From IMG/VR virus record IMGVR_UViG_2778261226_000007: a stretch of DNA of 31,860 nt; one strand, 5' to 3'. Source of the stretch: a virus (taxonomy: Duplodnaviria; Heunggongvirae; Uroviricota; Caudoviricetes). The position numbers and the translations under genes are program-made. Shown here in pieces: positions 25,633-30,096 of the stretch (its first letter is position 1; every line of letters begins with the position of its first letter). Under the pieces are notes generated by a model. That model did not search any database. It was not told where the DNA came from and was given only the letters and a program-made list of their open reading frames with translations.

Positions 25633-25765
25633 AGCAAAACACCAATATTAACTTGATAACACAAGAATACATCAAGATTAAATTAACATGCAAGTTGCAA
25701 AAGGATCGAATACACTAAAATCAAGTAAAGATTTATCCTTGTAAAGAAACCCACAGGACCTGGTC
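25633..25765. promoter_or_regulatory. Divergent PR/PRM-type promoter-operator region
   Basis: AT-rich intergenic region with repeated CTTGAT/ATCAAG half-sites (25652-25657, 25671-25676, 25720-25725). Exact promoters not resolved. Confidence 0.55.
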
Positions 25766-26455
25766 ATGAAGAACGTCAAAAACACGGAAAATCGAATAGC
25801 CGCGATGCTGAAAGCAAAAGGATGGACTCAGGCTCAACTGGCCCGCAAGTTAGGTGTGAGTGCGCAATCAGTGCAGTACTGGACAACAGGAAAGACATTT
25901 CCACGGAGTGATAAGCTTGCGCAGTTATCAGAGATTAGCGGTTATCCACAATCCTGGTTCTTAGGTGAAGACCCCTCACCGACCTTCTCCTCGCCAGAGA
26001 AACACCAGACAAGAACAGATAGCGTCGTGTTTAATGTCCTTGATGTTGAGTTCAGTTGCGGTGATGGAACTCATGTCCGTGGTGACTTGATAGATGTAGT
26101 GCGCTCAATAGAACTTGATCCTGAATATGCCCGACGTCTTGTTGGAAATCGGGCATTCAAAAATATAGAAATAGGTAACGCCAGAGGAGACAGTATGGCT
26201 CCCACAATCTCACCTGGCGACCTTCTTTTTCTCGATAAGACAGTAACTTATTTTGATGGAGATGGCATTTATGCATTTTGTTTTGATGGAGAATGCTACG
26301 TGAAAAGACTTCAAAAAATTGGAAGCAAAATCATGGTGTTATCTGATAACCCCAATTATCAACCATGGAGCATCGAAAAAGAGGGTTTAGCTCTGCTTTA
26401 TATCCAGTCTAAAGTGATCTCATCTGTACCATTCAATATAAACAGATTTGGTTAG
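25766..26455 (+). CDS. CI-type prophage repressor (HTH plus S24/LexA-like autocleavage domain)
   Basis: N-terminal HTH WTQAQLARKLGVSAQSVQYWTTGK. C-terminal GDSMAPTISPGDLLFLD...YVKRL supplies the Ser/Lys dyad context. Confidence 0.9.
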   Translation: MKNVKNTENRIAAMLKAKGWTQAQLARKLGVSAQSVQYWTTGKTFPRSDKLAQLSEISGYPQSWFLGEDPSPTFSSPEKHQTRTDSVVFNVLDVEFSCGDGTHVRGDLIDVVRSIELDPEYARRLVGNRAFKNIEIGNARGDSMAPTISPGDLLFLDKTVTYFDGDGIYAFCFDGECYVKRLQKIGSKIMVLSDNPNYQPWSIEKEGLALLYIQSKVISSVPFNINRFG

Positions 26456-26467
26456 TCTTTGATTTTA

Positions 26468-26488
26468 ACGGGCTTTGCCCGTTTTTTT
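26468..26488 (+). terminator. Intrinsic terminator after the repressor gene
   Basis: ACGGGC, loop TTT, GCCCGT, followed by T6. Confidence 0.75.
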
Positions 26489-26518
26489 CTGCCTAAAATA
26501 CACGATATCAATTTTTTC

Positions 26519-26547
26519 TTGACAGCCTATTTCGCAAAGCATAATAT
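26519..26547 (+). promoter_or_regulatory. Near-consensus sigma70 promoter (pL equivalent)
   Basis: TTGACA, 17 nt, TAATAT. It is followed at 26554-26570 by the 17-bp near-palindrome ATCAACTATAACTTGAT, which shares half-sites with the cro/cI control region. Confidence 0.75.
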
Positions 26548-26600
26548 CGCGCCATCAACTATAACTTGATTTGATTCAATTTAAAATTGTTGGTGGGTAT

Positions 26601-28267: not shown

Positions 28268-28375
28268 ATGAAAAGCAACCGTGAATTAAACAGAGTAAAA
28301 CTGATTTTAATCCTTGCCACAGTACTGACACTAACTGAAATCATTATTCTCTTTATTGCGCTGTCAGTCGGTTAA
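28268..28375 (+). CDS. 35-aa hydrophobic peptide (not in track)
   Basis: My translation is MKSNRELNRVKLILILATVLTLTEIIILFIALSVG: a basic N-terminus followed by a single TM segment. No clear SD. Confidence 0.3.
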   Translation: MKSNRELNRVKLILILATVLTLTEIIILFIALSVG

Positions 28376-28398: not shown

Positions 28399-28587
28399 AT
28401 GAGACTGTATTTCACAATAGTAATTTTACTGGCAATTATCGCATGCATTTACGGATTACTCGTTCCGTTCCTTATATCCATGAAGGATACGATAGCAGTT
28501 ATTTCTGGCTTTGCACTGGCGTTTCTGACCCCGCCCTGCATTTATGCCATTTACAAGGGTCTTTCTTTCACTAAGGATAAAAGATGA
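28399..28587 (+). CDS. 62-aa 2-TM membrane protein, coupled to the SPFH gene
   Basis: Two hydrophobic segments. The stop overlaps the SPFH ATG (ATGA). Confidence 0.55.
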   Translation: MRLYFTIVILLAIIACIYGLLVPFLISMKDTIAVISGFALAFLTPPCIYAIYKGLSFTKDKR

Positions 28588-29411
28588 AAAAAATTATTTT
28601 TGCTTTAGCCATTGTTCTGCCGACTATTGGCCTTGTCGGTTGCGATCGCGTTGAACCAGGTAATGTTGGCATCAAGGTAAATAAACTGGGCGACGACAAA
28701 GGCGTCGGTGAGGTGGTCGGTGTTGGTCGCTACTGGACTGGCTGGAATACTGAAGTTTATATCTTCCCCACCTTCAAACAAATGAAGACCTACGATGAAC
28801 CGTTCAGTTTCCAGATGAGTGACGGTACAACCATCGGCTATCACATTGGCGTGGCCTACAAAGTTGATCCATCCAAAGTTACCACGGTGTTTCAGACCTA
28901 CCGCAAAGGCGTGGATGACATTACCGACACTGACCTGCGCCAGAAGATCGCCGACGCACTCAACCGACTGGCCAGCAAAATGACCACTGACAAATTTATC
29001 GACGGCGGCAAGTCTGAGCTGCTGGATGAAGCTCTTAAAGACATTCAGGCAGAGATGACACCTATCGGTATTCAGGTAATGAGCCTCTCATATGTGGGTA
29101 AGCCGGAGTACCCGCCAACCGTTATCGACAGCATTAATGCCAAAGTCACGGCAAACCAGAAAACCCTGCAGCGCGAGCAGGAAGTCAAGCAACGTGAAGC
29201 GGAGGCCAACATGCTACGTGCGGAAGCTGCCGGACAGGCTGATGCCATTCGAACAAAAGCCCAGGCAGAAGCCGATGCCATTCGTTTACGCGGCGAAGCT
29301 CTACGCCAGAACCCAGGCGTCATGGAGCTGGAAGCCATCAACAAGTGGAACGGTACACTGCCGCAATACATGACCAGTGGTGCCAATACACCATTTATCC
29401 AGATTAAATAA
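28584..29411 (+). CDS. SPFH/band-7 (prohibitin/HflKC-like) domain lipoprotein
   Basis: Signal peptide MKKIIFALAIVLPTIGLVGC with a lipobox and Asp at +2. The SPFH-like core is followed by an Ala/Glu/Gln/Arg-rich coiled coil (QREAEANMLRAEAAGQADAIRTKAQAEADAIRLRGEA). AAGGA SD. Confidence 0.8.
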   Translation: MKKIIFALAIVLPTIGLVGCDRVEPGNVGIKVNKLGDDKGVGEVVGVGRYWTGWNTEVYIFPTFKQMKTYDEPFSFQMSDGTTIGYHIGVAYKVDPSKVTTVFQTYRKGVDDITDTDLRQKIADALNRLASKMTTDKFIDGGKSELLDEALKDIQAEMTPIGIQVMSLSYVGKPEYPPTVIDSINAKVTANQKTLQREQEVKQREAEANMLRAEAAGQADAIRTKAQAEADAIRLRGEALRQNPGVMELEAINKWNGTLPQYMTSGANTPFIQIK

Positions 29412-29450
29412 CTTATATGCCCGGCAGGCGCCGGGCTAAGGGAAATGCAG

Positions 29451-29822
29451 ATGAACACCCAGAATACTCAACCGCAAATAATGAACTATGACCCGAATCT
29501 GACGTCATGCGGACGCATGGCAAACCAAACCGTTCGATTAACTTTCGGACTATGGGAATACCGCGAAACATTCGAAGTTACTGTCGGCGGCAATCTGACC
29601 GGACTGGATGTTATCAGTTGCGCTATTGAAAGCCTGTACGCAACGCTGCCTTATGAAGAAGTCAAGGATGAGCGCACAGGGGAAACAGATATCATGGCCA
29701 CCATTAATATTGGCGAACTGATATGTCAGGATGAAGACCTGTCCGGAGAACTCTGGCTTGCCGGGATGCTTATCTCAGCAGAAATTATCAGTATTGAACC
29801 CGCTACAAACATACGGCTCTGA
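29451..29822 (+). CDS. Hypothetical protein
   Basis: ORF 29445..29822. The ATG at 29451 has better spacing to AAGGGA. No family recognised. Confidence 0.55.
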   Translation: MNTQNTQPQIMNYDPNLTSCGRMANQTVRLTFGLWEYRETFEVTVGGNLTGLDVISCAIESLYATLPYEEVKDERTGETDIMATINIGELICQDEDLSGELWLAGMLISAEIISIEPATNIRL

Positions 29823-29853
29823 AGTTCTCACTATTCAGAGAGCAGGAGAAAAA

Positions 29854-30096
29854 ATGTTTGCTTTGATTAATCAGGGACAACTGTATACCGACAGTGCCGG
29901 TTACCCGGTAAAAATTATTCGCTGCATAAATAACACCGTGTTGTACAGAAGAATGGATGGGCGAACACAATCGGTAAAAATGAACGATTTTAATGAATCG
30001 TTTGAACGGATCGATCACCAGGAATACCGACAAATTCTGGCAGAAACAGAGCAGGAAGCTCATCTGAAAAAATTACGAGCCATGAAAAGGAAGTAG
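29854..30096 (+). CDS. Small protein, DUF4222-like
   Basis: Start at MFALINQGQLYTDSAGYPVKII with AGGAG upstream. The pattern resembles small proteins common near xis in lambdoid prophages. Confidence 0.5.
   Translation: MFALINQGQLYTDSAGYPVKIIRCINNTVLYRRMDGRTQSVKMNDFNESFERIDHQEYRQILAETEQEAHLKKLRAMKRK

What the first reader, a model, noticed from the sequence alone, without database searches (positions are those of the whole stretch)
28399..29411. Phage-encoded SPFH lipoprotein with an inner-membrane retention signal, coupled to a 2-TM mini-protein
The SPFH/band-7 protein carries a lipoprotein signal (LVGC). Asp at +2 is the classical Lol-avoidance signal in E. coli-type hosts. This predicts a periplasm-facing protein anchored in the inner membrane, unlike the usual N-terminal TM anchor. 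It is translationally coupled (ATGA) to a 62-aa 2-TM protein, recalling the NfeD-SPFH operon pairing. Host SPFH proteins HflK/HflC gate FtsH, which degrades lambda CII and CIII. A pL-operon SPFH protein could therefore tune the lysis-lysogeny decision. Alternatively, it could act as a membrane cage for superinfection exclusion or abortive infection.
Basis: partly seen in the sequence, partly recalled or inferred. Interest (0 to 1): 0.6.

Follow-up and report, generated by a model that had tools for sequence, protein, structure and literature searches.

The report
Phage SPFH lipoprotein with two-helix partner
This prophage carries a real gene pair, a tiny two-helix membrane protein plus a lipid-anchored SPFH "cage" protein, that is widespread in lytic and temperate phages, plasmids and some bacterial chromosomes, so it is a general membrane module of unknown role, not a lysogeny switch.

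Summary
A 62-aa two-helix ORF (28399-28587) overlaps by ATGA a 275-aa ORF (28584-29411). The 275-aa protein is a Band_7/SPFH protein with a lipobox (LVGC) followed by Asp.

The prophage is phiP27-like and sits at yecE. The SPFH gene is phiP27 L05, already annotated as "lipoprotein" or "SPFH domain-containing protein".

- **Partnership.** The small protein (PHROG 1130; conserved turn P-x-L-I-S) lies immediately upstream of this SPFH subfamily (PHROG 200) in about 70 of 79 genome loci from many phyla. About 12% of family representatives are natural fusions of the two.
- **Location.** Inner-membrane, periplasm-facing placement is plausible. Support: Asp+2, Cys-less signal-anchor variants, three-helix fusions, and a helical partner. 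However, Arg at +3 means the retention signal is not the strong type.
- **NfeD.** The small protein is not an NfeD protein.
- **Distribution.** 737 phage records carry a homologue, including virulent N4, rV5-like, Kayvirus and crAss-like phages. So do 673 plasmids, and so do the Dyella and Leptospira chromosomes in non-phage contexts. This argues against a role specific to lysogeny. That FtsH/CII idea is already in print.

No experimentally shown function was found.

The parts
28399..28587 (+). 62-aa two-helix inner-membrane mini-protein (PHROG 1130 family). Predicted N-in/C-in hairpin.
   Evidence: ORF. Two hydrophobic segments and a basic C-terminal tail. phrog_1130 E 2.5e-23. Annotated as WP_001242070.1 in RefSeq. 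35 homologue clusters in Enterobacterales. No Pfam family.
28465..28491 (+). Conserved turn of the mini-protein, P23-F-L-I-S27-M-K-D-T31, predicted to lie at the periplasmic face between the two helices.
   Evidence: P23, S27 and G37 are nearly invariant in 23 mini-proteins from phages and bacteria of several phyla. The same motif is present in the N-terminal extension of natural fusion proteins. Topology is inferred from the basic linker in the fusions and from the positive-inside rule.
28573..28587 (+). Junction: Shine-Dalgarno AAGGA (28573-77), a 6-nt spacer, then the ATGA start/stop overlap (28584-87).
   Evidence: Sequence. In related loci the two genes overlap by 4 nt, or lie within about 15 nt of each other.
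28584..29411 (+). 275-aa SPFH/Band 7 lipoprotein (PHROG 200; phiP27 L05 orthologue).
   Evidence: Pfam Band_7 E 3e-31. phrog_200 E 4e-114. 99.6% identical to phiP27 L05. AF2 model pLDDT 80.6. Best fold matches are HflC, prohibitin, HflK, erlin and stomatin.
28584..28646 (+). Lipoprotein signal peptide (aa 1-19), lipobox L17-V-G-C20 (28632-28643) and Asp21 at +2 (28644-46). Arg22 is at +3.
   Evidence: Sequence. The lipobox is kept in about 105 of the 120 closest homologues and in 105 of 150 family representatives. Cys is replaced by Y/W/F in 13 of the 120.
28647..29207 (+). SPFH domain proper (aa 22-208). It starts two residues after the acylated Cys, with no tether.
   Evidence: Pfam envelope 22-208. 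Model strands and helices cover 20-175.
29115..29345 (+). Long C-terminal helix (aa 178-242) plus a short helix (244-254), followed by the conserved K-W-N-G-x-L-P motif. This is the part that builds the wall and cap of SPFH cages in solved relatives.
   Evidence: Model secondary structure. W255, G257 and P260 are invariant in 125 sequences. Full-length structural alignment to cage subunits.
26467..26578 (+). Likely control region of the operon that contains the pair: the terminator after the cI-like gene (26467-83), a sigma-70-like promoter TTGACA-17-TAATAT (26519-47), and an operator-like ACTTGATTTGATTCAA (26562-78).
   Evidence: Scan. ACTTGAT/ATCAAGT half-sites are shared with the cI-cro intergenic region at about 25650, 25672 and 25720. 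Function is inferred, not shown.

Best explanation
The two genes encode one membrane machine.

**The small protein.** The 62-aa protein is an inner-membrane helical hairpin. Both ends are in the cytoplasm, and a conserved short turn (P-x-L-I-S...) lies at the periplasmic surface.

**The SPFH protein.** The 275-aa protein is exported, lipid-modified at Cys20, and most likely stays on the outer face of the inner membrane. Its SPFH domain starts directly at the lipid anchor and its long helix projects into the periplasm.

**Assembly (inferred).** Its closest structural relatives are HflK/C, prohibitins, erlins and stomatin. By analogy it is expected to oligomerise into a ring or dome that fences off a patch of inner membrane. 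HflK/C supply the transmembrane palisade or anchor with their own N-terminal helices; here the hairpin supplies it in trans, at roughly 1:1. In other organisms the same parts are fused into a single three-helix SPFH protein.

**Expression (inferred).** In this prophage the pair is read with the early-left (pL-like) operon, so it is made on infection or induction.

**Shown versus inferred.** Shown: family membership, fold, lipobox, and the conserved adjacency and fusions. Inferred: processing, membrane location, oligomerisation, direct contact, and timing.

**Role.** The cage's client is unknown. The module is shared by virulent phages, temperate phages, phage-plasmids and some bacterial chromosomes. 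I therefore take its role to be generic organisation or quality control of the inner membrane during infection, for example gating or sequestering a membrane protein such as a protease. I do not take it to be a lambda-type lysogeny switch.
For: - **SPFH membership:**
- **Model and fold:** AF2 model pLDDT 80.6 with an SPFH core and a 65-residue helix. Foldseek gives full-length matches to HflC 7vhq_G (E 1.8e-14), prohibitin, HflK, erlin1/2, stomatin, flotillin and QmcA. Profile hits to QmcA, HflK and HflC in the PDB.
- **Lipobox conservation:**
- **Pair conserved in other phages:** P88, a P2-like phage, where the mini is only 20% identical but keeps the motif and the 4-nt overlap. Also a Cohaesibacter prophage, the N4 species, Erwinia S6, Burkholderia Maja, rV5-like SSE121 and Pseudomonas U2. 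N4, Cohaesibacter and U2 minis match phrog_1130.
- **Pair conserved in genomes:** of 79 genome loci with enough upstream sequence, a strict automated test found the mini in 59, and reading the rest raised this to about 70. The apparent E. coli/Shigella exception is an IS1 element inserted between the two genes.
- **Natural in-frame fusions:** about 18 of 150 family representatives, plus genome loci L137, L144, L145, L161 and L165.
- **Inner-membrane location:** Asp+2. Cys replaced by Tyr/Trp/Phe in 13 of the 120 closest homologues, and no Cys at all in some Sutterella loci, which gives an uncleaved signal anchor. The fusions and the helical partner point the same way.
- **Operon context:**
- **General SPFH ring/dome behaviour and periplasmic HflK/C:** PMC12624060, PMC12048511.
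Against: - No experiment on this family was found in the searchable literature.
- Arg at +3 weakens the Lol-avoidance signal (PMC6469965).
- Some Enterobacterales members have Glu or Ala at +2, and most non-enterobacterial members have Ser. Under the E. coli rule these would go to the outer membrane.
- A prophage HflK/C-like protein of Pasteurella was detected in outer-membrane vesicles (PMC9872710). Its homology to this protein was not verified.
- Direct contact between the two proteins is inferred only from adjacency and fusion. The AF2 model of a fusion protein was of low confidence (pLDDT 67).
- In P88 the mature SPFH is nearly identical while the mini is only 20% identical. Any contact must therefore rest on few residues.
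- Kayvirus and haloarchaeal virus homologues have different small neighbours.
Confidence: 0.55

Rival explanations
1. FtsH gate or lysogeny tuner. The phage SPFH cage mimics or competes with HflK/C. This changes FtsH access to CII, CIII or Xis-type substrates and shifts the lysis-lysogeny decision.
For: - The fold is closest to HflC and HflK, and the protein has the same periplasm-facing topology (PMC12048511).
- The gene lies in the early-left operon upstream of xis and int, near a CII-like regulator.
- Other authors have suggested the same (PMC8540360, PMC10269572).
Against: - HflK/HflC equivalog models score far below their cut-offs: 25.9 against 134 and 23.1 against 159.
- The module is present in strictly virulent phages (N4, rV5-like, Bcepfunavirus, Kayvirus-type homologue, crAss-like) and in non-phage chromosomal contexts in Dyella and Leptospira.
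- It also occurs in viruses of haloarchaea.
- No contact with FtsH has been shown.
Confidence: 0.15
2. Superinfection exclusion or abortive infection. The inner-membrane cage blocks DNA entry of incoming phages, or kills the infected cell.
For: - It is an early-expressed membrane module of the accessory ("moron") class.
- In an N4-species genome it lies directly after a gene annotated as superinfection exclusion, phrog_1510.
- Lipoprotein exclusion factors are known in phages: T5 Llp (PMC9586334) and Ltp (PMC3952083).
Against: - No PADLOC model matches either protein.
- Cellular, non-phage copies exist in Dyella and Leptospira.
- Known lipoprotein exclusion factors are small receptor or tape-measure binders, not SPFH cages.
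- The N4 neighbour's name is only an annotation.
Confidence: 0.15
3. Envelope or lysis-timing helper. The cage stabilises or compartmentalises the inner membrane late in infection, for example by controlling holin, endolysin or secretion factors, and so sets the time of lysis or the burst size.
For: In Kayvirus the SPFH gene mbpS and a small membrane-protein gene mbpV lie between the endolysin lysK and the secreted transglycosylase tgl. The authors proposed a role in Sec-dependent export (PMC7150955). The crAss-like copy lies two genes from a peptidoglycan hydrolase.
Against: In this prophage and in P88 the pair is in the early region, far from the lysis genes. In N4-like and other phages it lies among early or middle genes of unknown function. 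There is no experiment.
Confidence: 0.1
4. Outer-membrane or vesicle-borne lipoprotein acting on the animal host (lysogenic conversion), not an inner-membrane protein.
For: - Arg+3 weakens retention (PMC6469965).
- Glu, Ala or Ser at +2 in many relatives.
- The Pasteurella prophage HflK/C-like protein PM0222 is expressed in the lysogen, found in outer-membrane vesicles, signals through TLR1/2 and affects virulence (PMC9872710).
Against: - The obligate partner is a helical membrane protein, which can only sit in the inner membrane.
- Three-helix fusions and Cys-less signal-anchor variants keep the SPFH domain at the inner membrane.
- Homology of PM0222 to this subfamily could not be checked.
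- Presence in virulent phages and environmental bacteria does not fit a virulence role.
Confidence: 0.05

Closest known systems
E. coli HflK/HflC (the SPFH cage around FtsH)
   Same: - SPFH1-SPFH2-long helix architecture; best fold matches.
- Anchored in the inner membrane with the body in the periplasm (PMC12048511).
- Expected ring or dome assembly.
   Different: - Homo-oligomer expected, since there is a single SPFH gene.
- Lipid anchor instead of an N-terminal helix.
- 275 aa against 334 and 419 aa.
- Only about 17% identical, and fails the HflK/HflC equivalog models.
- No evidence of FtsH binding.
- Has a dedicated two-helix partner.
SPFH-NfeD operons (QmcA-YbbJ, PDB 8z5g; YqiK-YqiJ; archaeal stomatin-STOPP)
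   Same: A small membrane-protein gene lies immediately upstream of, and coupled to, an SPFH gene. The partner is presumably located at or within the membrane patch under the cage.
   Different: - The partner has no NfeD/OB-fold domain: no Pfam NfeD hit in 23 members and no match to YbbJ.
- QmcA and YqiK face the cytoplasm (from my own knowledge); this protein faces the periplasm.
phiP27 L05 / PHROG 200 "lipoprotein" with PHROG 1130 "membrane protein"; CPT annotation "HflC/HflK family inner membrane lipoprotein" (phages BcepF1, Maja)
   Same: The same two families. The window protein is 99.6% identical to L05.
   Different: These are annotations only. No function is given, and no description of the two genes as an obligate pair was found in the literature searched.
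Kayvirus MbpV-MbpS (Staphylococcus phage K group)
   Same: A phage SPFH protein (about 25% identical) preceded by a small membrane-protein gene in one transcription unit.
   Different: MbpS has a helical anchor, not a clear lipobox. MbpV has one helix plus a long charged tail and belongs to another family, phrog_3667. The host is Gram-positive and the genes are in the lysis region.
Phage lipoprotein exclusion factors (T5 Llp, Cor, TP-J34 Ltp)
   Same: Phage-encoded lipoproteins made early or from the prophage, acting in the envelope.
   Different: They are small, non-SPFH, and bind a receptor or tape-measure protein. Llp is an outer-membrane lipoprotein (PMC9586334).

Membership tests
SPFH / Band 7 (Pfam PF01145) | Match to the family model above the gathering score | tested here: met
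   E 3e-31, 109.2 bits against a cut-off of 23.6, residues 22-208.
SPFH / Band 7 | SPFH alpha/beta core followed by a long helix, as in cage-forming members | tested here: met
   AF2 model pLDDT 80.6. Full-length Foldseek matches to HflC, HflK, prohibitin, erlin, stomatin and flotillin with probability 1.00.
SPFH / Band 7 | Assembly into a membrane-attached ring or dome | not testable with these tools
   Only monomer prediction was available. Inferred from relatives (PMC12624060).
HflK / HflC (FtsH modulators) | Score above the NCBIfam equivalog cut-offs | tested here: not met
   TIGR01932 scored 25.9 against 134.4 and TIGR01933 scored 23.1 against 159.4.
HflK / HflC (FtsH modulators) | Hetero-oligomer of two paralogues that binds FtsH | not tested
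   Only one SPFH gene lies in the locus. Binding cannot be tested here.
NfeD (partner of SPFH proteins; Pfam PF01957) | C-terminal OB-fold NfeD domain after the membrane helices | tested here: not met
   No NfeD hit at E<=1 in any of 23 mini-proteins. No hit to YbbJ or any NfeD chain in the PDB at E<=10. At 62 aa, two helices fill the protein.
Bacterial lipoprotein (Lgt/LspA substrate) | Signal peptide ending in a lipobox [LVI][ASTVI][GAS]C | tested here: met
   MKK- + hydrophobic core + LVGC at residues 17-20. Conserved in most homologues.
Bacterial lipoprotein (Lgt/LspA substrate) | Actual acylation and cleavage | not testable with these tools
   Needs globomycin or palmitate labelling.
E. 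coli inner-membrane lipoprotein (Lol avoidance) | Asp at +2 | tested here: met
   C20|D21. D at +2 in about 100 of the 120 closest enterobacterial homologues.
E. coli inner-membrane lipoprotein (Lol avoidance) | Strong signal: +3 is Asp, Glu or Gln, with no basic residue next to the Asp | tested here: not met
   +3 is Arg. Criterion as stated in PMC6469965.
Known anti-phage defence systems (PADLOC-DB 2.0) | Match of either protein to a defence-system model | tested here: not met
   No hit at E<=0.1 for either protein or for the neighbours 27584.., 29445.. and 29731...
Lambda-type early-left (pL) operon | Promoter downstream of the repressor gene, carrying repressor operators, reading through accessory genes to xis and int | tested here: inconclusive
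   Layout, a promoter-like site (10 of 12 matches), shared ACTTGAT half-sites and the absence of terminators fit. There are no transcript or binding data.
PHROG 1130 + PHROG 200 pair (as defined here) | A two-helix protein with the P-x-L-I-S turn encoded immediately upstream of, or fused to, the SPFH protein | tested here: met
   Window pair. The same arrangement occurs in about 70 of 79 genome loci and in several phage genera.

The most novel reading that the evidence does not exclude
The PHROG-1130 hairpin plus the lipid-anchored SPFH protein would be a so-far undescribed, ancient two-component SPFH system, sometimes fused. It would be a third kind of SPFH partnership beside SPFH-NfeD and HflK/C-FtsH. 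It would build a periplasm-facing cage on the inner membrane. Phages of every lifestyle, including N4, would have taken it from bacteria to sequester or gate a specific host inner-membrane protein during infection.
Probability: 0.3. Interest if true: 0.65.

Novelty: new variant of a known kind. Interest (0 to 1): 0.45.

Why it matters
SPFH cages (HflK/C, prohibitin, erlin, stomatin, flotillin) are now understood structurally, but their clients and logic remain debated.

A very compact version, with a lipid anchor and a 60-aa partner, is carried by about 1.5% of sequenced phage records and by hundreds of phage-plasmids. It would be a tractable model for how such cages are nucleated and what they enclose. 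It would also assign a role to one of the larger phage protein families of unknown function.

For this window specifically the gene is already annotated (phiP27 L05). The lysogeny-switch reading is neither new nor favoured by the distribution.

Tried and rejected
- **NfeD homology of the mini-protein:** rejected.
- **HflK/HflC orthology:** rejected.
- **Known defence system:** no PADLOC hit.
- **Apparent absence of the mini-gene upstream of the 96%-identical E. coli/Shigella copies:** explained by an IS1 insertion between the genes.
- **Wide alignment (44 sequences) as query for the genome scan:** A narrower alignment worked.
- **IMG/VR scan with the single protein:** returned only near-identical phiP27-type loci, so it was uninformative for co-occurrence.
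- **AF2 model of a natural fusion protein, meant to show how the hairpin sits against the SPFH domain:** confidence too low to use (pLDDT 67, linker below 50).
- **Literature searches for an experimentally shown function of a phage SPFH protein:** only speculation was found.
- **Own promoter for the pair:** not supported. There is only a weak 9-of-12 site inside the mini-gene.
- **Hairpin after the stop codon:** it has no T-run and is not called as a terminator.
Full report
**What is there**

Window 28399-29411 holds two + strand ORFs.
- The first is a 62-aa ORF (28399..28587). The second is a 275-aa ORF (28584..29411). Its ATG overlaps the first ORF's TGA as ATGA. A Shine-Dalgarno sequence, AAGGA, lies 6 nt upstream.
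- The small protein has two hydrophobic segments, a neutral loop (SMKDT) and a basic tail (YKGLSFTKDKR). This fits a hairpin with both ends in the cytoplasm.
- The large protein starts MKKIIFALAIVLPTIGLVGC|DRVEPG, a textbook lipoprotein signal. It matches Pfam Band_7 over residues 22-208 (E 3e-31).

The ATGA alone means little, because at least five other 4-nt overlaps occur in this window.

**Where it comes from**

- The region is 96.8% identical to phage phiP27 and 95% identical to a set of Stx2-converting phages. It is up to 99.9% identical to E. coli prophages inserted at yecE.
- The SPFH gene is phiP27 L05, first named "putative serine protease" and now "lipoprotein" or "SPFH domain-containing protein". 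RefSeq also annotates the 62-aa gene.
- The two proteins fall in PHROG 200 ("lipoprotein") and PHROG 1130 ("membrane protein"). Neither matches a PADLOC defence model.
- The rest of the window is a mosaic lambdoid prophage with HK97-type structural genes.

**Operon context**

- A cI-like repressor gene (25766..26455; phrog_4 with an S24-type C-terminus) is followed by a terminator (26467-83).
- Next comes a good sigma-70-like promoter, TTGACA-17-TAATAT (26519-47).
- ACTTGAT/ATCAAGT half-sites occur both in the cI-cro intergenic region and just after the -10 hexamer.
- No + strand terminator-like site follows before int.
- The order is: CII-like HTH gene, several unknowns, the pair, DUF5406, DUF4222, xis, int.

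A pL-like early-left operon is therefore a reasonable reading, but an inferred one. I found no convincing separate promoter for the pair.

**The main new result: the two genes are one conserved module**

1. *P88.* In the unrelated P2-like phage P88, and in a Salmonella prophage, the mature SPFH protein is nearly identical. The upstream 67-aa protein is only 20% identical, yet it keeps the two helices, the turn Y-x-G-L-L-P-x-(L/M)-I-S and the 4-nt overlap.
2. *Family size.* An exhaustive profile search found 3025 clusters at 50% identity with E<=1e-3, of which 229 had E<=1e-30.
3. *Fusions.* Of the best 150 representatives, 105 have a lipobox. About 18 are 330-390 aa long because the hairpin is fused in frame to the N-terminus. 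The order is helix 1, P-x-L-I-S turn, helix 2, basic linker, signal-like helix 3, Cys, SPFH.
4. *Genome loci.* A scan of one genome per species returned 80 loci. They came from Enterobacterales, Dyella and other Xanthomonadales, Sutterella, Cupriavidus, Leptospira, Bacteroidota and other groups.
   - A strict automated test found the upstream hairpin in 59 of 79 loci. Reading the remaining loci raised this to about 70. The hairpin gene either overlaps the SPFH gene by 4 nt or lies within about 15 nt of it; in a few loci it is fused.
   - The apparent exception in E. coli and Shigella is an IS1 element inserted exactly between the two genes.
5. *Alignment.* An alignment of 23 hairpins from phages and bacteria has P23, S27 and G37 nearly invariant.

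The fusions also give the topology. The basic linker must be cytoplasmic, so the conserved turn lies at the periplasmic face, next to where the SPFH domain meets the membrane.

**What the SPFH protein looks like**

- With a 125-sequence alignment, AlphaFold2 gives pLDDT 80.6. The model has a beta/alpha SPFH core (residues 20-175), one 65-residue helix (178-242), a short helix, and a conserved KWNGxLP tail.
- Foldseek against the PDB gives full-length matches at probability 1.00. In order they are HflC (7vhq_G, E 1.8e-14), prohibitin, HflK, erlin1/2, stomatin, flotillin and QmcA. All of these form membrane-attached rings or domes (PMC12624060).
- Sequence identity to these is about 15-18%. The HflK/HflC equivalog models are far from met.
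- The SPFH domain begins two residues after the acylated Cys, with no tether. The domain must therefore lie on the membrane that holds the lipid.

**Inner or outer membrane?**

For the inner membrane:
- Asp is at +2. It occurs in about 100 of the 120 closest enterobacterial homologues, and independently in Cupriavidus, Burkholderia phage Maja and part of Dyella.
- In 13 of the 120 closest homologues the Cys is replaced by Tyr, Trp or Phe, and some Sutterella loci have no Cys. This turns the signal peptide into an uncleaved inner-membrane anchor.
- The three-helix fusions keep the domain at the inner membrane.
- The partner is a helical membrane protein.

Against, or uncertain:
- +3 is Arg, whereas the strong E. 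coli signal has D/E/Q at +3 and no adjacent basic residue (PMC6469965).
- Some Enterobacterales members have Glu or Ala at +2, N4-like phages have Tyr, and most distant members have Ser.
- The +2 rule is not reliable outside Enterobacterales (PMC6469965).

I conclude that an inner-membrane, periplasm-facing location is likely. It rests more on the partner, the fusions and the Cys-less variants than on Asp+2. This topology is that of HflK/C (PMC12048511), so it is not unusual for an SPFH protein.

**NfeD?**

No. None of 23 hairpins matches the NfeD family at E<=1. The family profile hits no NfeD/YbbJ chain in the PDB. 62 residues leave no room for the OB-fold. The resemblance is one of gene order only.

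**Distribution and what it says about function**

- *Phages.* tblastn finds a homologue in 737 of 50,697 phage records, 683 of them full-length. These include strictly virulent phages:
  - the N4 species itself (VEc25: hairpin vec25_19 plus SPFH vec25_20);
  - Erwinia S6, rV5-like SSE121, Bruynoghevirus-type Pseudomonas phages and Burkholderia Maja, where it is annotated "HflC/HflK family inner membrane lipoprotein" next to "putative membrane protein";
  - phiCbK-like, crAss-like and Lak phages, Kayvirus (mbpV-mbpS) and haloarchaeal viruses.
- *Plasmids.* 673 plasmid records carry it. Most are non-mobilizable replicons of about 91-112 kb in Escherichia, Yersinia, Salmonella and Klebsiella. These are probably phage-plasmids.
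- *Chromosomes.* In Dyella halodurans and a Leptospira chromosome the pair lies among ordinary cellular genes: an M56 peptidase, hemerythrin and ribonucleotide reductase in one, succinate dehydrogenase and a beta-lactamase-family protein in the other.

A module shared by virulent phages, temperate phages, plasmids and cells is unlikely to exist in order to tune a lambda-type lysogeny decision. That idea has in any case been floated before for phage SPFH genes, with the same caveat (PMC8540360, PMC10269572). For Kayvirus, a role in Sec-dependent export of a lytic enzyme was suggested (PMC7150955). I found no experiment that establishes a function for any phage member.

One prophage-encoded HflK/C-like protein of Pasteurella is expressed in the lysogen, is found in outer-membrane vesicles and affects virulence (PMC9872710). 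I could not check whether it belongs to this subfamily.

**Best explanation**

The pair is a split version of a three-helix SPFH protein. A lipid-anchored, periplasm-facing subunit oligomerises into an HflK/C-like ring or dome on the inner membrane. A two-helix partner docks through its periplasmic turn and supplies the transmembrane part. In this prophage both are made with the early-left genes.
- *Shown:* family, fold, lipobox, and conserved adjacency and fusion.
- *Inferred:* processing, location, contact, oligomer and timing.
- *Unknown:* the client.

I rank a generic membrane-organising or quality-control role during infection first. FtsH gating, exclusion of other phages and envelope or lysis timing are live but unsupported special cases.

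**Novelty and score**

The gene and its lipoprotein/SPFH nature are already annotated, and the lysogeny hypothesis is already in print. In the literature I could search, I did not find a description of the obligate two-helix partner, its conserved turn, the fusions, or the Cys-less variants. I rate the finding as a new variant of a known kind (an SPFH-plus-partner operon with a non-NfeD partner) and of moderate interest.

Noticed in passing
L089 3018-4828 (E. coli CP178302.1) and L088 (Shigella flexneri): An IS1 element (InsA/InsB ORFs on the opposite strand) is inserted exactly between the mini-gene and the SPFH gene. It alters the last residues of the mini-protein and uncouples the two genes.
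   Followed up: partly
P0110-P0120 and P0049, P0050, P0055, P0056 (homologues on about 110-kb contigs): The lipobox Cys is replaced by Tyr, Trp or Phe (IIGY|DRVEPG). All are single-base changes from TGC/TGT. This predicts a switch from a lipid anchor to an uncleaved signal anchor in a whole sub-lineage, probably SSU5/pHCM2/pMT1-type phage-plasmids. Compare the 106-112 kb plasmids.
   Followed up: partly
L108 (Dyella halodurans chromosome) and L160 (Leptospira chromosome 1): The same hairpin + SPFH pair lies among ordinary cellular genes, and it is present in more than 40 Dyella species genomes. The module is therefore cellular as well as viral. In Dyella a BlaR1-type M56 membrane peptidase gene lies nearby on the opposite strand.
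   Followed up: partly
L171 607-2031 (Escherichia phage VEc25, species Enquatrovirus N4): Phage N4 carries the pair directly downstream of a gene annotated as superinfection exclusion (phrog_1510). Its SPFH has Tyr at +2 and Asp at +3 (LTSC|YDRVEPG).
   Followed up: partly
window 28632 (codon 17 of the SPFH gene) compared with L002 (phage P88): Nucleotide similarity to P88 (90.6%) starts at the lipobox and ends near the 3' end of the gene. The mini-gene plus signal-peptide region and the mature SPFH region therefore behave as separate recombination units.
   Followed up: no
window 28268-28375 (+): An unannotated 35-aa ORF with one hydrophobic helix (MKSNRELNRVKLILILATVLTLTEIIILFIALSVG) lies in the AT-rich spacer just upstream of the mini-gene. 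It has no family match and may be spurious.
   Followed up: no
window 29419-29436 (+): A GC-rich 7-bp hairpin (GCCCGGC-AGGC-GCCGGGC) lies 8 nt after the SPFH stop codon. It has no T-run and is not called as a terminator. It could be an RNA stability or processing element.
   Followed up: no
window 25640-25735 and 26553-26581: Repeated ACTTGAT/ATCAAGT half-sites occur in the cI-cro intergenic region and next to the pL-like promoter. These are candidate repressor operators of this immunity type.
   Followed up: partly
window 29445-30096 (+): Downstream of the pair are a DUF5406 gene and a DUF4222 gene. They are of unknown function and are conserved with the pair in phiP27-type prophages. Their ORFs overlap as listed (29445..29822 and 29731..30096), but RefSeq uses a later start for the second.
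   Followed up: no
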